A stretch of DNA of 51,671 nt from an uncultured Candidatus Saccharibacteria bacterium (lineage in GTDB: Bacteria > Patescibacteriota > WWE3 > UBA101185 > UBA10185). Shown here piece after piece: positions 19,785 through 31,450 of this stretch (its first letter is position 1; every line of letters starts with the position of its first letter). The notes under the pieces were generated by a model, which did not search any database, had not been told where the DNA came from, and was given only the letters and a program-made list of their open reading frames with translations. The stretch lies in the NCBI GenBank assembly GCA_964385105.1, contig CAYLMU010000002.1:1-51671 (forward strand), in the 5' to 3' direction. Made by a program: the position numbers and the translations under genes.

Positions 19785-19913
19785 TGTCAATAAGATGTTG
19801 ACAAGTACTAGAACCCATAGTATAGTATATAACACTGATGTCACAGGAAGAATGTATATTACTCTGATGTTTGTCAACACATACTTGACAAGTATAAAAC
19901 TATAGGGTAAGAT
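19785..19913. promoter_or_regulatory. Twin TGTCAA-N7-TTGACA palindromes forming overlapping divergent sigma70 promoters
   Basis: Palindromes at 19785-19803 and 19872-19890, both followed by AGTA. + strand: TTGACA-17-TATAGT and TTGACA-17-TAAGAT. - strand: TTGACA-17-TACTCT, 6 nt before the TrmB ATG. Confidence 0.7.
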
Positions 19914-19919
19914 ATAAAC

Positions 19920-20900
19920 ACTTGAAAAATAAATAGCTAACAAAAAGCAGATCCTACCAGATCTTGATTCTACCTAAAAAGATTGCTGCTAAGCCAAAAA
20001 GGCCCTGTAAAGGCTTTACGGCGACACATTTAGAAAGCCAAGATTTGGTAAAGAAGTCTAAAAACCTTGATATAGCAACCTATACAAGGAATTGCATTTC
20101 TTTTCAGATCTTGGCTTTTTTCGTTTTTGCCTTAAATGTGCAATAAACATTGATATATTGCAAGCAAAAGCTTGTCTAGGAAACACGGGACACCTTTAAG
20201 AACCCAATTTGGAAGTTATCTAGAAACAAACTGTCCATAACCGGGAGAGAGACTTAAACGGACCTACCGACTTCTCGGACAAGCTTTTGCTTGAAATTCA
20301 AATACGAATTCAGGCAGCATTTGGCTTAAATACAAGCCAAACATTGAAATTAAAATAAAGCTGCTGTTTATACATTTGCCCCTACCGGCCAAACTTGGGT
20401 ATATCCCATGGTTTGATGTGTAGCAGAATAAAGCTTAAAACTTGCCAAATGCTTTAACAAAAGTAAGTGGCAACCGAGAATCTGTTCCATTGGCCGGCAA
20501 ATTTGCCTGCCTGAAAGGAAAGAGTGGCTCAAAACTGACAAAAGAGACAAACGATTGCTTAAAAACGTAATGAACATCAATTTGTTCTTACGAAAAGTAA
20601 AGTAGGTAATTGGCTAAATGGTCATTAGAAACACTTTAGCTATAGCCAAAAAAGCTTTACTTCCTACCTTTCGTGAATCCTGCCAAATAAATTCATGGAT
20701 ATTACGAAAAGGAGAGGATCAAAGTTATTGTTACTTAAGCAAATAGGCTTAGGTGCAGGCTTTGGTTTCCTGACTGCGCTTTTAGCGGTGGCGAAAATGT
20801 TGCCGGTGAAGGTGCAGATTAGGAAGGACTTCTTCCTAAACAGAAATCTCTCCGTAGGTATTAGCTTACGGATACAAATGCCGGCGCCTGAAACGCTGGA
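19920..20900 (+). ncRNA. Candidate large structured non-coding RNA or leader (about 1 kb)
   Basis: No credible ORF; nested inverted repeats, e.g. perfect 16 bp 20161-20176/20278-20293, TTCAGGCAG/CTGCCTGAA, CCGGCCAA/TTGGCCGG, AAAGCCAAGATTTG/CAGATCTTGGCTTT. Confidence 0.45.
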
Positions 20901-20911
20901 AGGAGATTAAA

Positions 20912-21241
20912 GTGAAGATTTATGAATTCACAACCAACTGGAATCAAACAGTTGGCGTCGACGGGGACTATCGGCATGTGATGCCGTTGGGCGACCTCCC
21001 CCATGTCTCAACGTACGAGGATGCATATGCATTCCTCGTTTACGACGGGGCGATAAAATGGGGAGAGGAAATTGTGGTGGTGTTTTCCCCAGGGGGGGAC
21101 ACCATGTCAATCTTTAACGAGGTCGAAATCGGCCTTGTTAAGCAGGTTGGGCCGTCAGAGCTGTCTTTTTTGGCTCTGAGCTGGTGGCTTGAAAATCAAG
21201 GGATGACCCCTGAGGACATGGAGGAATTTCTCAGAGGATAA
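20912..21241 (+). CDS. Hypothetical protein (109 aa)
   Basis: GGAG SD plus GTG start; protein-like composition. Confidence 0.7.
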   Translation: MKIYEFTTNWNQTVGVDGDYRHVMPLGDLPHVSTYEDAYAFLVYDGAIKWGEEIVVVFSPGGDTMSIFNEVEIGLVKQVGPSELSFLALSWWLENQGMTPEDMEEFLRG

Positions 21242-21784
21242 TCCCATTTTTCTACGACGCAAGCTAGTATTCTTTTTTTAGAGTATGACACTTGCGTCTC
21301 CACTTTAAACTTTAACTATAAATTGAAGTTTAAGCTGGAGAATAATAATTTAGTAGGATTAGGAAGAATTGAGGGACTACGCTAACCCTCAAAAAGCACT
21401 GTAATAGGGTAATTTAACCATTGCAGAATGCTTTTATCTCTTCCTACCAATTAAAAATACGTAGTTATCAAGTTGCTGTGTGTAGATGTTTGCAAAACGT
21501 GCGGGTTGTTAAACGTCTGCATCAGCTACCGGATAACTGAGGTAGTTTGGTTTGTTGTGTCTTTAATTAGGCAATGACAACTTAAATGATCTTGATTTAT
21601 CGGTAGCGGCTTGTTCTACCTGCCTATTTAATAGAACTGCCGACAAGTTCTTTGAAAACCGAATATCAAAGAATGTTAAATGATTGAGAAATTAGATTTT
21701 AGCAGTTAGGGAAGTGGATGGTGTTATAAAGCTTTTTATGGCTTATAGCATTGTACGCTTCCCGGGGCTGCATATCCTATAGAG

Positions 21785-21813
21785 TTGACATGGTGTAAGA
21801 CCTATAGTATAAT
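21785..21813 (+). promoter_or_regulatory. Consensus sigma70 promoter
   Basis: TTGACA-17 nt-TATAAT, exact consensus. Confidence 0.85.
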
Positions 21814-22098
21814 TGAGTCGTATTAAAGTGAGATAAGAAATTAGATCGCTTTGACAATATAAATATGTATCTTGCCCGATATAGCGACGTTTACCCAAAT
21901 TGTAAGTTAATAGACATTTTGAAGCTTTTGTAAGAAGGTAACAGATTAGTATTTGCAAGCAGTAAAGCTTTGTATATGCTTTTTTGATGCGTTCTTATAA
22001 AGAACCGGCCGAAAACACCTAGGTCGACAGCGAAACTGCGTGTGCAGTGGAGTAGGTGAAAACCCAAGATTTTCTATAGCCTAAAGGAGGCATAAGAA

Positions 22099-22797
22099 AT
22101 GAAAAACGTGAATCAGACGAGTGAAAGTGGAAAATACACGAAGTTGGTTTGGGCGATGAATGCTGCCGCCTTTGTCCCGGAAATCGTCTCCGAGAAGGTA
22201 ACATTTCCCCCCGTCATTCATGATGGGAATGGAAAAACGCACGTGTTGAAGGAACGAGAATTTTATTTTCTGGTTCCGGAAGCGTTGGACGGACGTTGGC
22301 GCAAGATCGCCCGCAAGCATGCGGACGCGCTCGCCCGGCCCGAATATGGCCCCCGCGGCCAGTTCGGGTTTTTGACGGTTTCGGCAGAAGCCGACCGTCA
22401 ATGGGAGTTATTCAAGGCCTTGTGCGCCAGTCAGGCGCGTGAGGCTGAGGAAATTCTCGTTGCGTTGAGCAACGAGGCTCTCATTGGAAAGGCGAAAATT
22501 GATTTCGAGAAAGCCCAGCGGCTTCTCAACTCGAAAAAAGCCTATCCCGCCCTTTGCGCTGCTCGCGCAGCTCAGAGGGAGTTTGAACGTCAACGCGACG
22601 AGCTGGTGGGGACCATAGGTTCCCAAACAGATTCGTTCGTTGGCGACCGCCGTTTTACACAAAAAGGTGGGGTTCGAGTTGAACTCCGTCAAAACGGGAA
22701 AAACGGCACTCGGAAAGGCGGTTGGGACAAAAAGCGCTCCAAGCGCTCCAGTCGCCAAAAAAACGAAAGTCATTTGGATCCGGCTAACTACCGGTAA
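22099..22797 (+). CDS. Hypothetical protein (232 aa) with Lys/Arg-rich C-terminal tail
   Basis: GGAGG SD; long ORF; tail GKNGTRKGGWDKKRSKRSSRQKNE. Confidence 0.8.
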   Translation: MKNVNQTSESGKYTKLVWAMNAAAFVPEIVSEKVTFPPVIHDGNGKTHVLKEREFYFLVPEALDGRWRKIARKHADALARPEYGPRGQFGFLTVSAEADRQWELFKALCASQAREAEEILVALSNEALIGKAKIDFEKAQRLLNSKKAYPALCAARAAQREFERQRDELVGTIGSQTDSFVGDRRFTQKGGVRVELRQNGKNGTRKGGWDKKRSKRSSRQKNESHLDPANYR

Positions 22798-22814
22798 AAT
22801 GGTTTTCGTTTGAA

Positions 22815-22957
22815 GGGGCCGACAGGCGTCGACTTCGCGGAAATAGTTTCGGTAGAGGGAAAATGCCCAAGCAAAAACCTCGAAAAAACTTGGTCAGCCT
22901 AAACCCTGACGACAAAAAAAGCCGTGAAGGACCTGGGTTCGATTCCCAGCGGCTCCA
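22815..22957 (+). ncRNA. Miniature tmRNA-like RNA: tRNA-like domain, helix 2a and pk1, no normal mRNA-like domain
   Basis: Acceptor stem GGGGCCG/CGGCTCC-A with G3:U wobble. ssrA-like 5' end GGGGCCGACAGGCGTCGAC. T-arm CTGGG-TTCGATT-CCCAG. CTTCGCGG/CCGTGAAG helix. Pseudoknot GAGG/CCTC plus CCAAG/CTTGG. Only 143 nt; CCA not encoded. Confidence 0.8.
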
Positions 22958-23015
22958 TTATGTAAGTGCTCGACCCGTAAGGGTAGAGCTATGGCCTTGT
23001 GCCAGGAGAAAAAAA

Positions 23016-23120
23016 ATGGAGATTATTATTTCCATTTTTCGTTCCCTAAAAGCCACTTGGCGCTGCATTTGCGGTACCGAAGTGGAAATGGGGAAATCCT
23101 GTTGGCGTTGCAACCAGTAG
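23016..23120 (+). CDS. 34-aa zinc-ribbon-like microprotein
   Basis: AGGAG SD; MEIIISIFRSLKATWRCICGTEVEMGKSCWRCNQ with CxC..CxxC. Confidence 0.55.
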   Translation: MEIIISIFRSLKATWRCICGTEVEMGKSCWRCNQ

Positions 23121-23627
23121 TTTAGGTTGCAAAAAAACGTCAACACCCACCAATGGGTTACAATGGCAGGTTTGATATTACCTGGGTGCTGGTTATCCAA
23201 AAGCACAAAAAATATAATGGTGACAGGGAACCTGGAAATAATTAACGGGTGAACTGTTGCGATAGTTTTTTTATAAAAACTACAAGGAGAAAAAATTAAT
23301 TCTGATGACATTCTGAATTAATTTCTCACTCCCTGCAGGGCTTAATACCTAAACAGCAAAAATGTTTTAGGTCGGGAGTAAACGTGTGAGGGATCACACC
23401 AAAAGTTAAGCCAAAGCAATCATTTGAGGGGACGTTTCGATTCGGAACTGCGTGAAATTGCAATTAAGCAAATTCATATCTGGTCGTTTCGTCCCTTTCT
23501 TCATTTATTAATTACAGAAATTAGCTTATATAAAAATGTGGGTTAGTTTCCTTACTTAATAAGTATGGCGGATTATGTACCTAGCCGTTAGTGCACGTGC
23601 ACACTGGTACAAAAGGAGAGAAAGATT

Positions 23628-23915
23628 TTGAATAGAAAATTTTTTGGAAGACAACAGAAGGGGTTGCGAAAAAACATGCGAACTCGCTCTGTTGTTAGAG
23701 CATGGAAGGCAGCAATTGCTGATGCTCGCGAAGATGTCCTCATTCCCCTGAATCGTACTCCTGAGAAGGATATTATTGAGGGTGAGTACATTGAGCGTCT
23801 TCGGAGTCATCCGCGCTATCCCAAATGCCAAAAGGAGCGGAAACTCCGTACCCGTCGTCGTGTCCGACGTTTTCGTTATTTTTACGAAGACATTCGGTAC
23901 GAATACTGGGCTTAA
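23628..23915 (+). CDS. Hypothetical Arg-rich protein (95 aa)
   Basis: AGGAG SD plus TTG start. Confidence 0.65.
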   Translation: MNRKFFGRQQKGLRKNMRTRSVVRAWKAAIADAREDVLIPLNRTPEKDIIEGEYIERLRSHPRYPKCQKERKLRTRRRVRRFRYFYEDIRYEYWA

Positions 23916-24138
23916 AATCTTAAAACTCTGAGGTACAAGGTTAGGCATTTTCATAAATTTATCATTTATGCCTAGCCTTGTACCATAACACTTTATTTTC
24001 TCAATCAAGTATTAATATTCTTTATTTGTAGCCAATTGTTTGGTGGTATTTGTTGTTTTTGTGGTAAAGACAGCAGGTATTACTAAGCAACTGTGCTTGG
24101 TAAGAAAAAATAGGACGAAAACCCAAGGAGAAAGGGAA

Positions 24139-24495
24139 ATGGATGAAGAGCAGTTGGAACAATTAAAAAAGCAGATCTTGAAAAAGTTTCATGATCAGTA
24201 TGAATATGAGAGAAAAAATTTGATGGCAAGATTTCTTGCCGTCCACAGTGTGGGCGGGAATACAATTGAGCCATTTTATCGCGCCGAAGAACGCACGGTA
24301 AAGCTTTTTGTTGAAGTTTTCGGAGAGAATTCTCCTGCGTACTATGTGCGCGGTGAAGATCTTTGCCCGGATTGGCGTGGTTCCTTTGAAGAAGGGAAGA
24401 CTTACGCTGAATGTTGGCGTGATGGCTCTTTGAAGGTTGTCGATGACTCTGAGGGTCAAACTTTTGGAATGCGGGGGCACTTGTATTATGAGTAA
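24139..24495 (+). CDS. Hypothetical protein
   Basis: AAGGAG upstream of ATG 24139 (MDEEQLEQLK); overlaps next start. Confidence 0.72.
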   Translation: MDEEQLEQLKKQILKKFHDQYEYERKNLMARFLAVHSVGGNTIEPFYRAEERTVKLFVEVFGENSPAYYVRGEDLCPDWRGSFEEGKTYAECWRDGSLKVVDDSEGQTFGMRGHLYYE

Positions 24496-24793
24496 TACAA
24501 AGGTCTCCGAAATGAGAGAAGGCGAAAAGGGTTACGTGGTGCCCTGGGCTTTTTCTCGTTTAAGGTTTGGGATTAGTGTAAATAAAAATTACACTGTAAG
24601 TCCCAAATTTGGTGGAACTGCAACCGTCGAAGTTGCAAAGATTCAAGGAGAACTTAGAGTTCTCAGTGGATTAAAACTTGACAGAGTAAGCAACTGGAGG
24701 AAGGAGTTTCTGCTTCCGGTTAAGCTTACCTGGTATGATCGTGTTAGGTTTCTGATTTTTTGCATGTTGCAAAAAATACAAAAAAAACGTTAA
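24488..24793 (+). CDS. Hypothetical protein
   Basis: MSNTKVSEMREGEKGYVVPWAF; start overlaps upstream stop. Confidence 0.68.
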   Translation: MSNTKVSEMREGEKGYVVPWAFSRLRFGISVNKNYTVSPKFGGTATVEVAKIQGELRVLSGLKLDRVSNWRKEFLLPVKLTWYDRVRFLIFCMLQKIQKKR

Positions 24794-25110
24794 GTTTAAA
24801 CAAAGGAGATACCACTAGCTCTCAGCTAGAACACTCCTTGACCTCGCCCAAATGGGTTGTAAGGTCTAAAGAATGAAACTCAACTTGGTATCAGATTCCG
24901 TTCGGGACGGATCTGTAGAGTTTCCGCAAGCCTCTTGTTTCCTGGGTTAAAGGACAGGTGAAGAGAGGATGAGAGCACAAGCGAACAACGACTGAACAAT
25001 TTTAGTTCAGGATCGGTTCCCGTCCACATAGTGTGGATTCCGTGCCAACTCTTGGCGCAGGTGAGGCTTTCCGGTAATGCCGACACCAAAATAAAAGAGT
25101 TACTAAGCAG

Positions 25111-25190
25111 TTTGTCTTACGCGCTCCAGCTATAACCAGTAAAAAATTAATTAAAACTTAAACTGTTATGGCTGGGGGTTTGCACTTAAA
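25111..25190. repeat. About 80-nt dispersed hairpin repeat, copy 1
   Basis: Near-identical to 27858-27935 (4 substitutions, 2 single-base indels); 16-bp stem CTCCAGCTATAA(C)CAGT/ACTGTTATGGCTGGGG. Confidence 0.9.
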
Positions 25191-25262
25191 TTTGGAACTT
25201 TGTTTATAAATTTTTGTAAACAGAATTCCTTTTTTAAGGATAGAGTGATCAACTCGAAAAAT

Positions 25263-25448
25263 ATGAAGCTTGTTATTGAAGTGCCTGGCGAAAAGCATAA
25301 GGGCAAAATAACTAGGGTAAAAGACTTACTGAAATGTCTTTCGGGCCTTTGGCAAACCTCACCGCAAGGGAGGCGACTGAGAAGGTTCGGCCGGTACGCC
25401 GTGTTAGTTGCGTATAAAGGGAAAAAAGAGAATGAGTACGTTGTATGA
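25263..25448 (+). CDS. Hypothetical small basic protein
   Basis: MKLVIEVPGEKHKGK; overlaps next gene. Confidence 0.5.
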   Translation: MKLVIEVPGEKHKGKITRVKDLLKCLSGLWQTSPQGRRLRRFGRYAVLVAYKGKKENEYVV

Positions 25449-26409
25449 TTTGAGTTCTGTATTAGCAAATCCTGATGATGTTGAGGATTTGCAATTTCAA
25501 CTCAATAGAGAGTTGGAGTATGTGATACTCGCAGTGCAAGCACTGCGGTATGAATACTCCGAAGCCGATCTTGGCTATGGAAAGCAGGGAAACCTGTCTT
25601 TCAAAGGTCGTGCTCCCGAGTTGAAGACAAAGGCAGCCAGAGTGGCAGACTGGCTGATTTGGCTTCGGGATGGAACTCCTGAAGAGGCAATGATGGGAAT
25701 TGCTGAGAGTATTTCTCAGCTAATTCGTGAACTCGACTACACTTTGTCGTATGACAAAGACAGTAGAGAGTTTTTCCGGATTCTCGGGGAACTGGAATAC
25801 AAAGGTCGCTACGCGGCCTTTTATCCTGACACTCGGGAGGTGCTCGTGGAGTTTGACACGCTTGAAGAAGGATTGGAGTTTGCAAAACAAGCTCCTATTT
25901 TTCTTACAAGTGTTGTCGAAGCTTTCCGTGCGCAGCGGGAAAACAACATGATTCGTTGGTATTTCGATGCTGACGGGTCGATGGTAGATGGTGGAAAGAT
26001 TTTTACCACCCAATACCAAAATTGGAAGACCGTTACGCTTTTGAAGGGTTTAGGGTTTGAAGTCGACCGTGAGAGGGTCGGGGACAATTTGGTCACGAAA
26101 AGTGGACCGGTTGTTCACATCTTTCACGGTTGGGAACCATCGAAAGATGGTTCACGTCTCACAAGCGGGGACGATCTATCTAACCCCGATTCCCCGCACT
26201 ATGGCCGCCGGTACCTTGATGCGTTTCTTTTTTGGACGCCCGAAGGTTACGCCGACGTTGTAGTGTGGAATTCCAGTCCCCATGGGGACGACCAACTGTA
26301 CGAAGTTGTTGGTCTGTCCTCTTACGAGGATTGGAAGGTGTTTGTGGAAGAGCGCCCAGAGGAATTTGGTTTGAGCCACTGGCTCGAATTCAATTCCATC
26401 TCGCTCTGA
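25432..26409 (+). CDS. Hypothetical protein (about 325 aa)
   Basis: Long ORF with purine-rich RBS before ATG 25432. Confidence 0.8.
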   Translation: MSTLYDLSSVLANPDDVEDLQFQLNRELEYVILAVQALRYEYSEADLGYGKQGNLSFKGRAPELKTKAARVADWLIWLRDGTPEEAMMGIAESISQLIRELDYTLSYDKDSREFFRILGELEYKGRYAAFYPDTREVLVEFDTLEEGLEFAKQAPIFLTSVVEAFRAQRENNMIRWYFDADGSMVDGGKIFTTQYQNWKTVTLLKGLGFEVDRERVGDNLVTKSGPVVHIFHGWEPSKDGSRLTSGDDLSNPDSPHYGRRYLDAFLFWTPEGYADVVVWNSSPHGDDQLYEVVGLSSYEDWKVFVEERPEEFGLSHWLEFNSISL

Positions 26410-26718
26410 AATTTTTTGAAGGCTACTGTAAAGTTATTTGGCAAATTAGCTAAATAACGGTAGCGTTGTGTTACCACAAAACAACTAAAACTTATGTGGA
26501 AAAGCAATTAAGTCTTAAATGGGAGATAGGGTTTGTTAATCTAACTGTAGAAATACTTTTAGCACGCAACCCTGTCTCCCAATCTCAAAATTTAGTTTAA
26601 TAGTCGTTCTCGTTTTGGCTTGCAATTTTACAGGCTAGTATGAGCATGATTATTGTAGTTAACCAATAAACTCTAGCTTCGGAGTGGTTAACGTTTGGTC
26701 ACCTTTAAAGGAGGAATA

Positions 26719-26964
26719 ATGACCAAAAATCCCTTATACACCCATGATTGCACCGAGTGTACATATCTTGGTGCATTTGAGGGTATCGACCTTTATCTCC
26801 ACAATGTTGGAGATGAAGAATCTTGGGAAATGGTTTGTCGCAGTAGCGACGAACCTGAAGATTATTATTGTCTTCCTTGGTTTGCTGATTTGGGTGAGGA
26901 ATCCAATTTCGACAAATATAGGGAGATTAAGAAAAGGGCTTTAGCCCAAATGGTCAAAACTTAA
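26719..26964 (+). CDS. Hypothetical protein with HDCxxC motif
   Basis: AGGAGG SD; MTKNPLYTHDCTECTYLG. Confidence 0.75.
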   Translation: MTKNPLYTHDCTECTYLGAFEGIDLYLHNVGDEESWEMVCRSSDEPEDYYCLPWFADLGEESNFDKYREIKKRALAQMVKT

Positions 26965-26974
26965 AGGAGGAAGA

Positions 26975-27469
26975 ATGACCAAATTAAAAAGAGTGTGGTT
27001 TTTAAGGAACCACACGAAAGTCCAATACACCGGCCTGGTAGCCGGAGTTAGGGACGGAAAGTTGTTGGTGAGGTACGCAAGACCTCTCAATACTTTTCAT
27101 GCTCCAAGCTTCATGGGGGAAGAAATTCGATTCCCTCAAACGGTTCTAGTAAGTAGGGAAGATATCTTGCCTTCAGGCAAGTTACGATTTCCTGAAAGCT
27201 GGGACCAAGATAGCGCATATGCGCTGAAACATGTTCCCTTCAAAAGTACCTTTGATGGTACTTTGTTTATCTATCATTATGTTGATGATAGTAGAGAAGG
27301 GATGGTTTATTTCTCTCTTCCGGTGGAAGAAGCTCAACTTATATTTGAGGGCTTTCCTCCACTGGAGAATTTTTTGTACCACAGCACAGTTACCGGAACG
27401 GTAACTGGTGAAATCGCATTTTACATCCTACGGGATGGTGTGCGGTTTAATGTGGTATATAAGGAATAA
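26975..27469 (+). CDS. Hypothetical protein (164 aa)
   Basis: AGGAGG SD; tandem with the previous gene. Confidence 0.78.
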   Translation: MTKLKRVWFLRNHTKVQYTGLVAGVRDGKLLVRYARPLNTFHAPSFMGEEIRFPQTVLVSREDILPSGKLRFPESWDQDSAYALKHVPFKSTFDGTLFIYHYVDDSREGMVYFSLPVEEAQLIFEGFPPLENFLYHSTVTGTVTGEIAFYILRDGVRFNVVYKE

Positions 27470-27473
27470 GTAA

Positions 27474-27805
27474 TTTGCGAAGCTCAGACAGAAGCTCCCT
27501 AGAATCGCCTTAAAAAGCGATACGTTGAAACGTCGAACAAAGCTCCAATCAGACACCCAGCCATGTAAAAAATGGCTTGATCTGATAAGGCTCAGCACCT
27601 AAACCAGGGTGTAAGGTTGAGCACGAGGAGAAAAGGCGTTTTCGCATGATGTTAAGGATGGTTTTCCGATGCATGCGTAAAAAAGCGTGTACCATTTGTT
27701 TTGGTACGAATAGGTGTCCGAAAGTTTAATATTTCGGAGCTCGGCCGGGGTCTTGGGTAAGATAGCCGGATGAGTAGAGAAATCTCTGCACGAGCGATTC
27801 GCAAA
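27474..27805 (+). ncRNA. Candidate multi-helix ncRNA (about 330 nt)
   Basis: Closing helix TTTGCGAA-GCTC/GAGC-(GA)-TTCGCAAA enclosing at least 8 hairpins; no ORF. Confidence 0.5.
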
Positions 27806-27857
27806 AAAAGCTGGGAATTTAACAAAGGTGGTTAAATTCCATAGTTGCAGTTAGTTG

Positions 27858-27935
27858 TTTGTCTCACGCGCTCCAGCTATAACCGGTAAAAATTAATTAA
27901 AATTTAAACTGTTATGGCTGGGGGTTGCATTTAAA
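27858..27935. repeat. About 80-nt dispersed hairpin repeat, copy 2
   Basis: Near-identical to 25111-25190. Confidence 0.9.
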
Positions 27936-28197
27936 AGAGGAATTTTGAGTACAAGATTTACGCTACTACTTGTAACCAAAATTTCTCTTTCAAATTACAT
28001 TTTGAATCGGATTAACATCCGGCCAATTCCTAGGTTTGCATATAGCTGCTTCCCGGTGCTTGATAAGTGCCGAATAAGGTTGAGCATATGGTTGTATGCA
28101 AAGTTGGATAGATGTTTTTGACTGAGGACGTGTTACCGCACGTAAAAAGGGTAAAAAGCGAAAAAAAAACAAAAGAAAACAAAAAGGGAAAAAAGAA

Positions 28198-29100
28198 ATG
28201 AATAAAGTACAGATGGACCGTCTGCAGGGGATTTTGATGTCGTTAGCAGACAGCACGGATTTGAACGTGCATCACAATGGTGTGGTTGCACGGATTTGGG
28301 GACGTCAGTCTCCTTACGTGTCTCATCAGGGGATTGATTTTGAGGTGGATGTTTATCACCCCGTGGGACATGATGTGGTTGCCTTTGATGGCAATTACAA
28401 GATGGTTGTTTCTGTTTGGGGGGACGCCAAGTGGCCCTTTGGGGATAAGCTCGATACCCCGAAGGACACATTTGAGGCTGAACTCGTTTCAGCCCAAATT
28501 CCTTTTCAACTCATCGAGTCGTTGCTCGATGACGTTGTGAATCGGGGAGCCCTTCCCTGGAGCATTGTTGCACAGCTGCGTGAACGTAAGCTTGTGTATG
28601 TGACGTTCCAGATTAAAAAGGTTGTTGGATGGACGTTTGACGGACGTCCGATTTTCAACAGCCTTGTAATCCGTTCTCAAAGAGAGCGGATTGTTAAGAG
28701 AATGAGGGAAACGCCAGATGTTATGGCGTACCCCGGTGATTTCGACGAGGCATTTGATGTCTCGGATAATGAACACCGGTGGATGAGTCCAAATTTCCCG
28801 CTTGACGTGTCGTTTGACGATACTGATGAGCAGGGAAGTTATGGCATGAGTTTCTCGAGTATCCTCGAAGCACGAGGATTCGAAGAGATACTCAAGGATG
28901 CCCGATTTGTCGAAATGATTCAGAAAATCCCTTACTTCGGTTGGGGAAGGGATTATTCTGAAATTGATGAAGATGAGGAGGAGTTTCAGTTCACAGAGGA
29001 GGATTATGAAACCTTGCTGGGCGGCGACACGCTTCGTAAAATTTACGAAGCCGACAAAGCCTGGAAGGTAAAATCCTCGTCCATTGAAGAAGAAGAGTAA
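28198..29100 (+). CDS. Hypothetical protein (300 aa) with acidic C-terminus
   Basis: Long ORF with purine-rich RBS. Confidence 0.8.
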   Translation: MNKVQMDRLQGILMSLADSTDLNVHHNGVVARIWGRQSPYVSHQGIDFEVDVYHPVGHDVVAFDGNYKMVVSVWGDAKWPFGDKLDTPKDTFEAELVSAQIPFQLIESLLDDVVNRGALPWSIVAQLRERKLVYVTFQIKKVVGWTFDGRPIFNSLVIRSQRERIVKRMRETPDVMAYPGDFDEAFDVSDNEHRWMSPNFPLDVSFDDTDEQGSYGMSFSSILEARGFEEILKDARFVEMIQKIPYFGWGRDYSEIDEDEEEFQFTEEDYETLLGGDTLRKIYEADKAWKVKSSSIEEEE

Positions 29101-29407
29101 ATTTGTTTAGCGGGATAGACCAGACTATTCCTTAGAAAGTAGCTAATTAAAGCGAAATCAGTTATCTGGTAATTTGTCTCGGAGCCCAAGTTAGTATTCT
29201 GATGTATAGAATGTGAAACTTGGGCCTCCTTTCAAGACTTTTAGAGTTTCTAAAGGTTTTGGACCGGAGGTAAATAGTATCGCTCGTTTTGCAACTTACA
29301 TAGTAAGTAATATAGTAAGTAATAGAGTGAGCGATATTATTAATAAACTGATCGATGAAGTCCAGCTTCGGAGGGAGATCGGTTTAACTTTCCTAGGAGG
29401 AAAGATC

Positions 29408-29767
29408 ATGAAAAACTTTCATGTTGCTCTGATTGATATTAATTCCCCGGAAGTGGGGGAGCAGTTTGGCGTCAGTGGCTGTTTGTCAGTAAACAAAGTT
29501 GGCACTGAAGTTTGGTGCTATCTGAGTGAAGTATTTTTGCCTGGAGACAACACTGATTTTACAGAGGGAAATGTGATTTTGGCGATTGGCGCCAAGGTGC
29601 CTGAATATATGCTTGAAGCGATTCGCTTTGAGCTCGAAAACGAGCACACCGGGTACCTTACGCCAGTACTCGATGTTTTTTTGGAAAAGCTGGTGTCTTT
29701 GCAGGCGCATCACGAATTCCAGCCTCCTGCAGAAGGAAGAGCGCTAGGGAAGCGTTTGTACTTCTAG
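29408..29767 (+). CDS. Hypothetical protein
   Basis: AGGAGG SD before ATG 29408; the upstream in-frame extension overlaps hairpins and is probably non-coding. Confidence 0.72.
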   Translation: MKNFHVALIDINSPEVGEQFGVSGCLSVNKVGTEVWCYLSEVFLPGDNTDFTEGNVILAIGAKVPEYMLEAIRFELENEHTGYLTPVLDVFLEKLVSLQAHHEFQPPAEGRALGKRLYF

Positions 29768-29919
29768 CGCAAAAAACAAAATTCCTTGATGGTAATGGAT
29801 ATGCCTAAAAACATAAAAAACCATCAAAAAAATTAGCAATTTCTCTTTGGACCGGGATAGAGAGAAAATCGAAAACATAAGAAAAGGTGATTATATGAGT
29901 GAAAAAAGTGTTGAAATAG

Positions 29920-30546
29920 TTGGCCGTGTTTGATGGGGAAACCATCTACATGGTTGATGAGCCGCGTGAGGCAGAAATTGCCGAGCTGGGTTATGTGGAT
30001 CGCGAACTAGTGGTACGCGACCACACGCGTCGGCAAGTGACGTTCGAAGTGGCCCCCGACCACCTGCTGAAGCAGGTTGAAAAGGAGCTACTTCAGGTCC
30101 GTCGGTGGCAAACTTTTGGTGAATGGCCGCAGAGCCATTCACTCCGGATGGATGACAAGACCGCTCGGGTCTATGTTGTCTATTCCGGTGGAGAGACCTC
30201 GTTCTCTCCCGAAGGTTACCACCGAGCGGGTTCTAGAGCGTACGAGGAAGCAAAATACTTCCTCCGGCAGGTTGTGAGAGGTGAAATTGAACCTGCTGTG
30301 TTGCTCCCCCAAGGCATATTGAGGAAGGTGGAACTTCCGCCCGTTCCTCAAAAGTGGGGGGAGCAGTACGCATATGTCAAGGCGTTACGCTTCTTGGGTC
30401 GAAAGACTCCTAAAGTGCAACGCCATGACGACCCCAACGCCAGGCTGTCCTGGACAGCCGTCCATTGGCTGGGGATTAGATTGGCTCTTGCCCTTGGTTG
30501 GGTTCCAAACCCGCCAAAAAGTGAAAACCACTTTTGGGCAGAGTGA
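29920..30546 (+). CDS. Hypothetical protein; true start possibly ATG 29895 with a frameshift near 29920
   Basis: 208-aa ORF; no SD at TTG 29920, but an SD-preceded ATG at 29895 is out of frame by one base. Confidence 0.65.
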   Translation: MAVFDGETIYMVDEPREAEIAELGYVDRELVVRDHTRRQVTFEVAPDHLLKQVEKELLQVRRWQTFGEWPQSHSLRMDDKTARVYVVYSGGETSFSPEGYHRAGSRAYEEAKYFLRQVVRGEIEPAVLLPQGILRKVELPPVPQKWGEQYAYVKALRFLGRKTPKVQRHDDPNARLSWTAVHWLGIRLALALGWVPNPPKSENHFWAE

Positions 30547-30791
30547 ATCAGTGCAGTCACAGCTGCAAAATAAACCTTCATGCACATCATGTAGGTAACT
30601 CAAATGAGTAGTTCTGTGAAAAACTCATAAGCAATTTGTTTTGTCGTGGCCAAAGTACAGTTACCTTAACCGGGATCTTGTGCTTTGGCCGCTCTTTAAA
30701 ATATTTCAGTGATAGTAATTTGCCGGTAACTAGTTATGGGTAAATTACTCTCATTGAATTGGAGAGTAAAAAATATAAAAGGAGAAAAAAA

Positions 30792-31100
30792 ATGAACGGC
30801 AACGGCAGGTATAATTTCGTCTGCATGGACTGCGGATATTTGGCAAAGCGACATAGTGGGGGTATTTGTCCACATTGTCGCATTCAGCTTACTAAAATAA
30901 CCCAAGAAGAAGCAAGATTTCTTGGTGACAAAAAAGTGAGAAGTGACAGACTGAGCGTTCTGAAGTGGATTCGTAGTAGATATTCCAAAGAAGTACTAGA
31001 ATCCACAGACAACTGGGGAAGGCCTTTTGTCCCATTATTATGGAGGCCTCGCAAGAGACGAAATTTAAGAGTTTTAATGGGTTGTGTAAAAAGATCTTAA
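30792..31100 (+). CDS. Zinc-ribbon-containing small basic protein
   Basis: AGGAG SD; CMDC..CPHC. Confidence 0.72.
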   Translation: MNGNGRYNFVCMDCGYLAKRHSGGICPHCRIQLTKITQEEARFLGDKKVRSDRLSVLKWIRSRYSKEVLESTDNWGRPFVPLLWRPRKRRNLRVLMGCVKRS

Positions 31101-31450
31101 AAACAGTACTCAATGTGAGTTATATAGTAATCGCACAAACATTGAGTTCAAAAAAGCGCTTTTGTGTTTTAACAGTGGGTAGGACTGTTAGTAACAAAAC
31201 ACGAGAGCGCTTTTTTGCATTATCCTATAAAATAATAATGGACATGCATTGTTCAAAATCACCTGATTCCAAACAAGTACATGTCCTAAAGTTCTAAACC
31301 TCAAATTCTAAAAAAGGGTGCTTATGTTATTTGCGAGACAAAATATTCTGCAACACAACAAGTGCCGATTTTCTCAAAGCAGCGCTAAGCCTACGTGCAT
31401 TATCGTCACTAATCTTGATTCCATTACCAAATATATTCTTCATTACTTTC

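What the first reader, a model, noticed from the sequence alone, without database searches (positions are those of the whole stretch)
27474..27805. Self-contained ~330-nt multi-helix RNA candidate
Seen: a 12-bp bulged closing helix encloses ATCGC/GCGAT, ACGT/ACGT, ATCAGA..AGCCAT/ATGGCT..TCTGAT, GCTCAG.CACC/GGTG..TTGAGC, CGCATG/CATGCG, GTACCA/TGGTAC, TCCGAAA/TTTCGGA, CCGG..CCGG and GTAGAGA/TCTCTGC. AAGCTC occurs three times and could pair alternatively with GGAGCT at 27736. A 10-bp GGAATTTAAC/GTTAAATTCC hairpin follows. I do not recognise the family.
Basis: partly seen in the sequence, partly recalled or inferred. Interest (0 to 1): 0.65.

Follow-up and report, generated by a model that had tools for sequence, protein, structure and literature searches.

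The report
New conserved 330-base folded RNA
The flagged stretch is a real, previously undescribed folded RNA of about 330 bases that sits just behind a gene in an island of fast-changing orphan genes of an ultra-small (CPR) bacterium; in a related genus it is kept with the same fold while almost all protein genes around it are unrecognisable, so it very probably has a function of its own, which is still unknown.

Summary
The stretch folds better than all 100 shuffles (z -4.4) and matches no Rfam 15 family.

Stability alone is weak evidence here. The whole 11.5-kb island (19.9-31.4 kb), genes included, is equally or more structured, and is the most structured stretch of the 0.87-Mb genome.

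The decisive evidence is comparative. A covariance model found one homologue in another genus of the same family (G063, E 5e-21). It is 69% identical over 358 nt, on a par with housekeeping genes, while no adjacent gene is homologous. It folds on its own into the same architecture. Model-aligned domains show 14 compensatory pairs and the slid-partner controls 0-1. The outer closing helix and a long-range helix also covary. A sludge strain variant adds two compensatory pairs. Conserved G·U pairs place the RNA on the + strand.

In both genomes the element starts 4-5 nt after an unrelated gene's stop codon and lies ahead of a conserved long hairpin. It is most likely a co-transcribed 3'-tail RNA module with a sequence-invariant three-way-junction core. 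Its function is unknown.

Only two species carry it, among about 620 relatives searched with models and 185,579 species scanned for one exact motif.

The parts
27474..27805 (+). The conserved structured RNA element (332 nt). The homologue in G063 is L033 10644..10297 on the minus strand, 348 nt.
   Evidence: MFE z -4.41. The covariance model found G063 at E 5e-21. Identity is 69% over 358 nt. G063 gives the same architecture in an independent MFE.
27474..27481 (+). P1a 5' strand (TTTGCGAA). It pairs with 27798-27805 (TTCGCAAA) and forms the outer closing helix.
   Evidence: In G063 the equivalent strands are TTTTTTTG / CAAAAAAA: 8 bp kept, 5 of them changed on both sides. Caveat: in G063 these are U and A runs, and the helix has only 3% probability in a long-context fold.
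27481..27497 (+). First two of three conserved AGCTC(C) copies. They can form a small AGCT/AGCT hairpin (27481-84 / 27493-96).
   Evidence: The MFE of both species chooses the hairpin. All letters are invariant, so the choice is unresolved. The 9-nt AGACAGAAG between the copies is invariant.
27498..27714 (+). P2, a long-range helix: CCTA 27498-27501 with TAGG 27711-27714. It encloses the 5' domain.
   Evidence: RNAalifold pairs 41-44 / 273-276. A-U becomes C-G in G063.
27504..27521 (+). P3 hairpin, ATCGC / GCGAT.
   Evidence: U-A becomes C-G in G063. In strain X5 the changes at 27509 and 27510 fall in the loop.
27527..27642 (+). P4, a long-range helix: GAAACGTC 27527-34 with GGCGTTTT 27635-42. 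It closes a three-way junction.
   Evidence: One compensatory pair (C-G to U-A), one G·U to G-C change and one invariant U·G pair (helix 2).
27543..27630 (+). P5: CTCC 27543-46 with GGAG 27627-30. It is flanked by the invariant junction strands GAACAAAG and AAAAGG.
   Evidence: Invariant in both genomes (helix 3).
27548..27586 (+). P6, a bulged hairpin: ATCAGA..AGCCAT / ATGGCT..TCTGAT.
   Evidence: Six compensatory pairs against G063 (helices 4 and 5). Strain X5 adds two compensatory pairs, 27560/27576 G-C to A-U and 27564/27572 U-A to A-U.
27590..27622 (+). P7 hairpin: GCTCA / TGAGC outer part, GCACCT / GGGTGT inner part.
   Evidence: The outer 5 bp are kept with 2 compensatory pairs. The inner part is absent in G063.
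27643..27677 (+). P8 hairpin: CGCATG / CATGCG with an inner GGA / TCC helix.
   Evidence: In G063 it reads CACAAG / CTTGTG with GGGTT / AACCC inside. Three compensatory pairs.
27689..27707 (+). P9 hairpin, GTACCA / TGGTAC. This is the variable region.
   Evidence: G063 has a larger two-hairpin insert here. The X5 change at 27699 is in the loop.
27717..27738 (+). P10 hairpin, TCCGAAA / TTTCGGA, with an invariant loop GTTTAATA.
   Evidence: Four compensatory stem pairs with an unchanged loop (helix 1). The loop is complementary to the invariant GTTGAA at 27524-29, a candidate tertiary contact with no covariation to test it.
27739..27795 (+). Three-way junction core: P11 (GCTCG / CGAGC), P12 (27745-27769) and P13 (27774-27789).
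   Evidence: P11, the outer part of P12 and P13 are identical in sequence in both genera, apart from the loop-proximal pair of P13. The longest invariant runs are GATAGCCGGATGAGTAGA and AATCTCTGCACGAGC. P13 holds an invariant U·G pair.
27803..27809 (+). Run of seven A at and after the 3' end of P1.
   Evidence: Read directly from the sequence. G063 has A8-T-A7 at the same place.
27814..27840 (+). The 10-bp hairpin GGAATTTAAC / GTTAAATTCC that follows the element.
   Evidence: G063 has a 6-bp GCTTCC / GGAAGC hairpin in the same interval. There is no T-run after it on the + strand. It scores as terminator-like only on the - strand.
27857..27935 (+). Long 'module' hairpin, repeated at 25110-25190. 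It lies 62 nt after the element and is possibly the transcript's terminator.
   Evidence: Direct repeat families D1 and D3. G063 has two homologous copies, one of them 71 nt after its element. Across the four copies there are 8 compensatory pairs and one invariant G·U.
26975..27469 (+). Upstream 164-aa orphan gene. Its stop codon ends 4 nt before the element.
   Evidence: It has a strong AAGGAGG ribosome-binding site (D2). The reading frame is kept in strain X5, with conservative and synonymous changes. It has no homologue among 5.8 billion proteins.

Best explanation
Window 27474-27805 encodes, on the + strand, a member of a previously undescribed family of structured RNA of about 330-350 nt.

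Shown:
- It has about 13 helices.
- An 8-bp helix (P1a) joins its two ends.
- A long-range helix (P2) encloses a 5' domain built of hairpins whose sequences drift while staying paired (P3, P6, P7, P8) around a P4/P5 junction.
- A 3' domain consists of a hairpin with an invariant loop (P10) and a three-way junction (P11/P12/P13) that is almost invariant in sequence.
- In two genera it keeps the same position in orthologous islands that start beside a TrmB-family regulator gene. It begins 4-5 nt after the stop codon of an unrelated orphan gene and lies 62-71 nt ahead of a conserved long hairpin.

Inferred:
- It is transcribed as the 3' tail of the upstream gene's message, not from a promoter of its own.
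- It folds as an autonomous module.
- The variable hairpins are scaffold. The invariant junction strands and the three-way junction are the working surface, either a binding site for a protein or another RNA, or a compact tertiary core.
- Its most likely role is that of a stable RNA module borne on the 3' untranslated region. It would either be released from the long island transcript or stay on it to protect and mark off the upstream message.
- The repeated AGCTC copies offer alternative partners for one GAGC strand. A ribosome stopping 4-5 nt upstream could therefore influence which fold forms.

The actual biochemical function is not known.
For: Real and conserved:
- The covariance model R1, built without the G063 sequence (from this window and its close strain variant X5), found G063 at E 5e-21 over the full model. 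R2, built from both copies, recovers both at about 1e-23, which is circular.
- Identity is 69% over 358 nt, within the 65-77% seen for housekeeping genes of the same two genomes.
- None of our island proteins matches the G063 contig that carries the element, by blastp or tblastn.

Structure:
- G063's copy folds on its own into the same architecture.
- 5' domain: 44 pairs, 98.8% of cells paired, 10 pairs compensatory. Slid-partner controls give 0-1 compensatory pairs and 32-38% of cells paired.
- 3' domain: 22 pairs, 4 compensatory, slid-partner controls 0.
- RNAalifold on a plain MAFFT alignment gives 12 compensatory pairs, including P2 and P8.
- A hand-registered comparison gives 24 compensatory, 2 one-sided and 0 broken among 78 non-conflicting pairs.
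- Strain X5 has 8 substitutions and 3 indels in the element. Four of the substitutions form two compensatory pairs, one turns a predicted U·G pair into U-A (27685), and the rest lie in loops or tails. The MFE architecture is identical.

Strand:
- U·G and G·U pairs that are invariant or change on one side only are standard only on the + strand.
- In the neighbouring gene, 5 of 5 transitions at paired sites keep pairing only on the + strand.
- The long-range helix specific to the - strand MFE is not complementary in G063 (sequence).

Co-transcription:
- The element is on the same strand as the gene and 4 or 5 nt after its stop codon in both genomes.
- No promoter-like site lies between gene and element.
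- One RNA-run contig spans 27294-27485.

Not coding:
- All frames are closed.
- The short ORF shared from ATG 27770 shows no synonymous drift, which points to conservation at the nucleotide level.
Against: - There are only two species plus one close strain, so no proper statistical covariation test is possible.
- Part of the 'compensatory' count comes from hairpins whose sequences are wholly different and were put in register by model or by hand.
- The closing helix is disfavoured in a long-context fold (3%). In G063 it is made of U and A runs.
- Fold stability is not distinctive within the island.
- Expression, transcript ends and processing are unknown. One 190-nt contig of depth 3 from a soil metatranscriptome could be DNA carry-over.
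- No partner protein or ligand has been identified, so the functional part of the statement is inference from anatomy and context.
Confidence: 0.6

Rival explanations
1. It is a cis-acting sensor or read-through controller, like a riboswitch or a processive antiterminator. The folded element would decide whether RNA polymerase passes the small hairpin and the long module hairpin 62-71 nt downstream, and so whether the next cassette gene is expressed.
For: - It is a multi-helix domain closed by P1, as in large aptamers.
- The order element, A-run, small hairpin, long hairpin is conserved, with similar spacing in both genera.
- In the context fold the 3' strand of P11/P1 can pair instead with 27842-27862, around the 10-bp hairpin.
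- Several AGCTC copies compete for one GAGC strand.
- The island is full of hairpins that polymerase must pass.
Against: - No known aptamer, T-box, EAR or put model matches.
- No boxA lies within the element.
- The alternative pairing with downstream sequence is not visibly conserved in G063 (sequence).
- Neither hairpin has a clear U-tract on the + strand.
- The downstream genes differ between the genomes, so no common regulated product is evident.
Confidence: 0.17
2. It has no function of its own. It is one more stretch of a generally hairpin-rich island transcript, and its structure is a by-product of whatever makes the whole island fold, for example selection for RNase resistance or template-switch mutation.
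For: - The whole island, genes included, is as structured or more so.
- The element's z-score is among the weaker ones.
- The cluster of six changes in one 19-nt hairpin in strain X5 could come from a single templated event.
Against: - Between the two genera's islands only four pieces show DNA similarity: this element, a leader element of about 130 nt, the regulator gene with its promoter region, and the module hairpins.
- It keeps its limits, helix order and invariant junction sequences, while neighbouring genes are unrecognisable.
- Generic hairpin richness does not predict 18-nt and 15-nt invariant blocks or long-range helices with compensatory change.
Confidence: 0.07
3. It is a self-cleaving or processing ('punctuation') RNA. 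It would cut itself, or be cut by RNase III or RNase P, out of the polycistronic transcript and so separate the cassette messages.
For: - The ends are brought together by P1, as in precursors cut by RNase III.
- A sequence-invariant three-way junction contains CGGATGAG, which resembles the hammerhead CUGAUGAG.
- Another island gene is followed within 17 nt by a mini-tmRNA, which must be cut out.
Against: - The hammerhead core is not met. U4 is replaced by G, there is no GAAA strand, and the junction strands are 1, 4 and 1 nt long.
- No ribozyme family of Rfam 15 matches at E up to 10 in either copy.
- P1a at 8 bp is short for RNase III.
Confidence: 0.08
4. It works as DNA or as a mobile unit: a recombination site of a gene-cassette system (an attC-like counterpart) or a small non-autonomous mobile element that travels between islands.
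For: - The distribution is patchy: 2 genomes of 134 in the class.
- The flanking cassettes differ between genera and even between strains. X5 lacks 26704-26961 and 29273-29873.
- Earlier notes of this scan describe cassette-like arrays in other CPR genomes. These are leads only.
Against: - A 13-helix branched fold with conserved G·U pairs on one strand is not the single bulged hairpin of an attC site.
- There is no second copy in the genome.
- No integrase or transposase is recognisable among the island genes scanned.
- The two islands are orthologous, both beside a TrmB-family gene, and the element diverged about as much as housekeeping genes. That fits vertical descent.
- The one strain deletion with resolved ends lies between 22-23-nt direct repeats at ribosome-binding sites, not at this element.
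Confidence: 0.05
5. The functional RNA is on the - strand, an antisense or small RNA ending at the - strand terminator-like hairpins.
For: - The - strand z-score is stronger (-6.15 against -4.41).
- Two - strand hairpins are followed by T-runs, at 27840-27814 and 27707-27689.
Against: - Conserved G·U pairs would be A·C mismatches on the - strand.
- The - strand MFE shares only 30 of 102 pairs with the conserved fold. Its distinctive 18-bp helix is not conserved in G063.
- Most island windows fold better on the + strand.
Confidence: 0.03

Closest known systems
Large orphan structured bacterial ncRNAs: raiA motif/ModT, OLE, ROOL, GOLLD (PMC12286853, PMC11706538, PMC10861870)
   Same: It is a multi-helix RNA of several hundred nucleotides. 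It is conserved through compensatory changes, has invariant junction sequences, does not code for protein, has no known biochemical function, and sits within or beside operons or variable gene regions.
   Different: It matches none of their Rfam models. It is much rarer: two species among about 620 genomes searched with models, plus one exact-motif scan of 185,579 species. It is smaller than ROOL, GOLLD and OLE. It is placed 4-5 nt behind a stop codon inside a hyper-structured orphan-gene island. Oligomerisation was not tested.
Intra-operon processive antitermination RNAs (EAR of the Bacillus eps operon, put of phage HK022) and boxA-type signals
   Same: It is a structured element in an intergenic gap of a long operon that contains many hairpins.
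   Different: It is three to five times larger. There is no model match and no boxA inside the element. No link to polymerase has been shown.
Riboswitches and T-box leaders
   Same: It is a domain closed by P1, with conserved junctions, followed by hairpins that could serve as an expression platform.
   Different: No known aptamer matches. No conserved terminator/antiterminator alternative was found. The downstream genes are not conserved.
3'-UTR stability elements and 3'-UTR-derived small RNAs (REP hairpins, terminator-derived sRNAs; exonuclease-resistant RNAs of flaviviruses as an analogue)
   Same: It lies directly after a stop codon, appears to be co-transcribed, and is highly structured.
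   Different: It is far more elaborate than needed to stop an exonuclease. It also has sequence-invariant blocks, which suggest specific recognition.
Hammerhead ribozyme
   Same: It has a three-way junction with a CGGAUGAG strand that resembles CUGAUGAG.
   Different: The core is not met: G replaces U4, there is no GAAA strand, and the junction strand lengths are wrong. No Rfam hit.
Integron attC sites and CALIN arrays
   Same: Structured non-coding spacers lie between co-oriented orphan gene cassettes that differ between strains.
   Different: It is a branched 330-nt fold, not a single bulged hairpin of 57-141 nt. It is a single copy, no integrase is present, and G·U pairs point to RNA.

Membership tests
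Any family of Rfam release 15 | A covariance-model match at or near the gathering score | tested here: not met
   At gathering threshold the window yields only four tRNAs and the tmRNA. At E up to 10 only chance-level miRNA, snoRNA and lncRNA hits appear, and they differ between the two homologues.
Conserved structured non-coding RNA (generic criteria for a new motif) | Homologues in distinct taxa | tested here: met
   G063 is a different genus of the same family. R1, built without G063, finds it at E 5e-21. R2 was built from both copies, so its hit is not independent. A strain variant is present in run X5. No other homologue in 89 order, 134 class or 401 phylum genomes.
Conserved structured non-coding RNA (generic criteria for a new motif) | Helices supported by compensatory base changes beyond controls | tested here: met
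   There are 10 + 4 compensatory pairs in the model-aligned domains, against 0-1 with slid partners. RNAalifold finds 12 on the MAFFT alignment. Strain X5 adds 2. With only two or three sequences this is a count, not a statistical test.
Conserved structured non-coding RNA (generic criteria for a new motif) | No conserved reading frame | tested here: met
   No ORF of 30 aa or more on the + strand lies inside the element. The 27-aa Cys-rich ORF loses a Cys in strain X5. The short ORF shared from ATG 27770 shows no synonymous drift.
Conserved structured non-coding RNA (generic criteria for a new motif) | Evidence of transcription | tested here: inconclusive
   No RNA run is indexed for the element or the island. 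One 190-nt contig from a soil metatranscriptome covers 27294-27485.
Conserved structured non-coding RNA (generic criteria for a new motif) | Significant covariation in R-scape on a deep alignment | not testable with these tools
   Only three sequences are available.
Hammerhead ribozyme | CUGAUGA and GAAA strands around a three-way junction, with an NUH cleavage site | tested here: not met
   The sequence reads CGGAUGA. No GAAA strand follows P13. The junction strands are 1, 4 and 1 nt. No hammerhead model hit.
Integron attC site | A single imperfect hairpin of 57-141 nt with R''/L'' and L'/R' boxes, repeated between cassettes, and an integrase or attC cluster | tested here: not met
   The fold is branched and 332 nt long. 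The genome holds a single copy. No integrase domain is found in the island genes scanned. The TTTAAC/GTTAAA letters of the 10-bp hairpin are only 7 nt apart.
boxA-type antitermination signal | A TGCTCTTTAACAA-like 12-13-mer in single-stranded context | tested here: not met
   A scan allowing up to 2 mismatches finds none in 27474-27860. Such words are also too common in this AT-rich genome to be informative.
Bacterial RNase P RNA | A match to RF00010 and being the genome's only copy | tested here: not met
   The genome's RNase P RNA is at C1:185794-186116, scoring 94.5 bits.
Intrinsic terminator (the 10-bp hairpin that follows) | A G+C-rich stem followed at once by a U-tract on the transcribed strand | tested here: not met
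   On the + strand the hairpin is followed by ATAGTTGCAG. It scores as terminator-like only on the - strand.

The most novel reading that the evidence does not exclude
In these ultra-small bacteria the durable, selected parts of the regulator-headed island would be its RNAs: this 330-nt element, the leader elements and the module hairpins. The orphan protein genes would be interchangeable cargo. The 330-nt RNA itself would be a new functional RNA class with a compact tertiary core, for example a ribonucleoprotein scaffold, a catalytic RNA, or a self-assembling 'ornate' RNA. It would act on, or be delivered with, whatever cassette lies upstream.
Probability: 0.12. Interest if true: 0.85.

Novelty: new variant of a known kind. 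Interest (0 to 1): 0.62.

Why it matters
Structured bacterial RNAs above about 300 nt that are neither ribosomal RNA, RNase P RNA, tmRNA nor introns are rare. Each new class has opened questions about RNA function, as OLE, raiA, ROOL and GOLLD did.

Almost nothing is known about non-coding RNAs of CPR/Patescibacteria. These bacteria are uncultured and have tiny genomes, where 330 nt of conserved non-coding sequence is a real investment.

Here the RNA has been kept since two genera diverged, while the protein genes beside it have been replaced or have changed beyond recognition. That reverses the usual picture, in which proteins are conserved and spacers are free to drift.

The element lies in the most structured stretch of the whole genome, more structured by the same measure than the region that appears to hold the rRNA operon. 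It therefore gives a concrete, clonable handle of 330 nt, with two natural variants, on why these islands are so heavily base-paired.

Tried and rejected
Searches that found no further homologue:
- blastn of the element against 60 relatives: only chance hits.
- blastn against 50,697 phage records: nothing.
- The flanking proteins against 100 relatives and 5.8 billion proteins: only themselves.
- Pfam and PHROGs on 13 island ORFs: no credible hit, only two marginal PHROG matches of unknown function for the 151-aa ORF and a sub-threshold zinc-ribbon hit.
- The same pattern in genome contigs: nothing.
- Viral contig scans with two element patterns: nothing.
- A genome-contig scan with CCGGATGAGTAG..CTGCACGAGC: only the G063 contig.
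- R2 on the class and on a phylum sample: no further member.
- Contigs that carry relatives of the 333-aa island protein: no element.
- Laying the sludge runs on the G063 copy: only the known strain's conserved blocks.
- RNA runs: none indexed.

Ideas considered and dropped:
- Divergent RNase P RNA: the real one is elsewhere in the genome.
- Paralogy with the other 316-nt spacer ahead of the first module hairpin (24794-25109): no similarity.
- A small Cys-rich peptide at 27646-27729: one Cys becomes Trp in strain X5.
- A conserved peptide from ATG 27770: there is no synonymous drift and no ribosome-binding site.
- A k-turn at the three-way junction: the sequence does not fit.
- boxA.
- Hammerhead: the core is not met.
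- An own promoter upstream: only a weak extended -10-like TGGTATATA, which G063 lacks.
- A decayed gene remnant: all six frames are closed in both genomes, and the changes are compensatory, not codon-like.
Full report
**The observation**

The window is the first 51.7 kb of a 319-kb contig of a 0.87-Mb genome that is 97.6% complete. Earlier notes of this scan call it a CPR/WWE3-type bacterium. The sequence turns up in activated-sludge metagenomes.

The 332-nt stretch folds to -110.4 kcal/mol against -87.6 +/- 5.2 for shuffles, z -4.41, and none of 100 shuffles does as well. The minus strand gives z -6.15 but a largely different structure, sharing 30 of 102 pairs.

Rfam 15 gives nothing at gathering score. 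At E up to 10 it gives only chance-level hits. The genome's RNase P RNA lies elsewhere. No credible ORF lies inside the element.

**Why stability alone proves little here**

A scan of the window in 330-nt steps shows that the whole island from about 19.9 to 31.4 kb has z between -3 and -13 on the + strand. This includes the interior of its long ORFs. The housekeeping flanks scatter around zero.

The official tool confirms z -8.0 and -8.9 for two coding windows and -6.5 for the next spacer. The flagged stretch is thus one of the weaker windows.

A genome-wide scan in 200-nt steps, with composition regressed out, finds this island to be by far the longest and strongest structured stretch of the genome. 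Its mean is -3.4 on the + strand and -2.1 on the - strand. A region that appears to be the rRNA operon reaches about -1.8.

The island genes look real:
- They have strong ribosome-binding sites.
- The 164-aa gene keeps its frame in a diverged strain, with conservative and synonymous changes.
- None has a credible Pfam or PHROG match.
- The two genes flanking the element have no relative among 5.8 billion proteins.

On this evidence alone the element could have been just another piece of a hairpin-rich transcript.

**Strain-level evidence**

A sludge run from another study (X5) holds a variant strain. Within the element it differs by 8 substitutions and 3 single-base deletions.
- Four of the substitutions form two compensatory pairs in hairpin 27559-27577: G-C to A-U and U-A to A-U.
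- One (27685) turns a predicted U·G pair into U-A.
- The others lie in loops or in the A-run.
- The predicted architecture is unchanged.

In the adjoining gene, all five transitions at predicted paired sites keep pairing only if the RNA is the + strand.

**The decisive evidence: a homologue in another genus**

blastn against 60 relatives found nothing. A covariance model was then built from 27502-27647 plus the strain variant. It found one full-length match in genome G063, a different genus of the same family, at E 5e-21. The contig is CAZBWW010000003.1.

The similarity covers the whole element, 69% over 358 nt. That is within the 65-77% range of housekeeping genes of the same two genomes. No island protein of ours matches that contig.

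G063's copy is 348 nt and folds on its own to the same architecture, with z -3.3.

Pair counts:
- Model-aligned 5' domain: 44 pairs, 98.8% of cells paired, 10 compensatory. With slid partners, 0-1 compensatory and 32-38% paired.
- Model-aligned 3' domain: 22 pairs, 4 compensatory, 0 with slid partners.
- RNAalifold on a plain MAFFT alignment: 12 compensatory pairs, including the long-range P2 (27498-501 / 27711-14, A-U to C-G) and P8.
- Hand-registered comparison: 24 compensatory, 2 one-sided and 0 broken among 78 non-conflicting pairs.

The outer closing helix is kept as TTTGCGAA/TTCGCAAA in our genome and TTTTTTTG/CAAAAAAA in G063.

Invariant or one-sided G·U pairs, for example in P4 and P13, are standard only on the + strand. 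The long helix specific to the minus-strand fold is not complementary in G063. The strand is therefore +, the strand of the genes.

**Anatomy**

- P1a (27474-81 / 27798-805) closes the molecule.
- P2 encloses a 5' domain. It contains P3 (27504-21), a junction formed by P4 (27527-34 / 27635-42) and P5 (27543-46 / 27627-30) that carries P6 (27548-86) and P7 (27590-622), then P8 (27643-77) and a variable P9 (27689-707).
- The 3' domain is P10 (27717-38), whose stem covaries at four pairs while its loop GTTTAATA is invariant, followed by a three-way junction of P11, P12 and P13 (27739-95). That junction is almost identical in sequence in both genera.
- Invariant blocks are AGACAGAAGCTCCCT, ACGTTGAAAYGTCGAACAAAGCTCCAA, GAGGAGAAAAGGC, GCTCGGCCGGG, GATAGCCGGATGAGTAGA and AATCTCTGCACGAGC.

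The pattern is drifting but paired peripheral hairpins around frozen junctions. This is what one expects of an RNA with a specific tertiary core or partner.

The inner four pairs of the closing helix (GCTC 27482-85 / GAGC 27792-95) use the same 3' letters as P11, and they compete with an AGCT/AGCT hairpin. All these letters are invariant. Three AGCTC copies are conserved in both genomes, so a choice between alternative pairings may be part of how the RNA works. That is inference.

A possible loop contact between GTTGAA 27524-29 and the P10 loop is conserved, but it has no covariation to test it.

**Context**

In both genomes the element starts 4 or 5 nt after the stop codon of an orphan gene. 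The gene is 164 aa here and 248 aa in G063, and the two are unrelated. After the element come an A-run, a small hairpin and, 62 or 71 nt on, a long hairpin. That long hairpin is itself homologous between the genomes, with 8 compensatory pairs across four copies.

No promoter-like site lies between gene and element. The only piece of this 20-kb region seen in an RNA run is a 190-nt contig that crosses the stop codon into the element. This is weak evidence.

G063's island also starts beside a TrmB-family gene with the same promoter region. It also holds a homologue of our leader element at about 28005-28160 and a weak relative of our 333-aa protein. It too is GC-richer and hyper-structured. The islands are therefore orthologous: cassettes turn over and the RNA stays.

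Strain X5 already lacks 26704-26961, between 22-23-nt direct repeats, and also lacks 29273-29873.

**Distribution**

No further member was found in:
- 89 genomes of the order, 134 of the class, and 401 sampled from the phylum;
- a motif scan of 185,579 species genomes;
- IMG/VR viral contigs;
- contigs that carry relatives of the 333-aa protein;
- the sludge runs.

The family is real but, on present data, narrow.

**What it most likely does**

Shown: a conserved, non-coding, + strand RNA fold in a fixed position behind a stop codon and ahead of a conserved hairpin.

Inferred: it is the 3' tail of the upstream message and folds as an autonomous module. It presents its invariant junctions to a partner or forms a compact core. 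It acts as a stable RNA module, either released from the transcript or protecting and marking off it.

Rivals, with rough odds:
- a read-through sensor ahead of the module hairpin (about 0.17);
- a processing or self-cleaving punctuation element (about 0.08; the hammerhead core is not met);
- a by-product of the island's general hairpin richness (about 0.07; contradicted by selective conservation);
- a DNA-level or mobile element (about 0.05);
- a minus-strand RNA (about 0.03).

**Comparison with known classes**

The element works most like the large orphan structured RNAs of bacteria: raiA/ModT, OLE, ROOL and GOLLD (PMC12286853, PMC11706538). It is not a member of any of them. No Rfam model matches either copy. 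It also fails the defining features of hammerhead, attC, boxA and RNase P.

I rate it a new family within a known kind. Interest is moderately high. A 330-nt RNA with this much covariation is uncommon, and its persistence amid orphan-gene turnover in a hyper-structured CPR island is unusual. The narrow distribution and the lack of expression data and of a function limit the score.

Noticed in passing
window 19884-31433: The whole island of co-oriented orphan genes is hyper-structured on the + strand, inside the ORFs as well (z -3 to -13 per 330 nt). It is the most structured stretch of the genome by a composition-corrected scan, exceeding what appears to be the rRNA region. G063's orthologous island and a region in G007 show the same pattern more weakly.
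   Followed up: partly
window 28005-28160: A second conserved non-coding element lies in the leader of the 300-aa gene: hairpin 28006-28020 plus a long hairpin at 28030-28107. It is 73% identical to G063 C23:2878-3003, where it precedes an unrelated 465-aa ORF.
   Followed up: partly
window 25110-25190 and 27857-27935; L033 about 11640-11556 and 10243-10160 (minus strand): The repeated long hairpin has two homologous copies in G063. Across the four copies there are 8 compensatory pairs and an invariant G·U. In copies 1 and 2 of our genome the similarity runs on for about 60 nt into an AT-rich second hairpin.
   Followed up: partly
window 26704-26961: Strain X5 lacks exactly the 81-aa gene. The deletion lies between 22-23-nt direct repeats (TTAAAGGAGGAAKAATGACCAAA) that comprise the ribosome-binding site and the first codons of two neighbouring genes.
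   Followed up: partly
window 29273-29873 and 29931: Strain X5 skips 599 nt here. After 29931 it continues with TTTTTGACGAACAGGGGAAAG..., which resembles the start of G063's 81-aa gene (..FFDEQGNLL..). This suggests cassette exchange between lineages.
   Followed up: no
genome contig C2:56200-58400 (outside the window): A second, smaller GC-richer structured islet lies next to ychF. It has a consensus promoter (TTGACA-17-TATAAT), a structured leader and a gene whose product appears to be exported. In G063 the orthologous ychF block lies beside the island that holds the 330-nt RNA.
   Followed up: no
window 25432-26409: The C-terminal part of the 333-aa island protein has relatives (56-58% identity over about 43% of its length) in metagenome contigs. 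There the relatives follow an AAA+ ATPase gene and a 283-aa gene. There is also a weak relative in G063's island.
   Followed up: partly
window 28147-28197: An almost pure A/G leader of about 50 nt lies before the 300-aa gene, which has only a weak ribosome-binding site. It may be an unstructured ribosome landing pad in an otherwise fully paired transcript.
   Followed up: no
genome contig C1:185794-186116: The genome's RNase P RNA scores 94.5 bits, just under Rfam's 100-bit cut-off for RF00010.
   Followed up: no
window 27803-27840 and 27679-27707, minus strand: Two hairpins are followed by T-runs on the minus strand and so look like terminators. They may stop antisense transcription into the element.
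   Followed up: no
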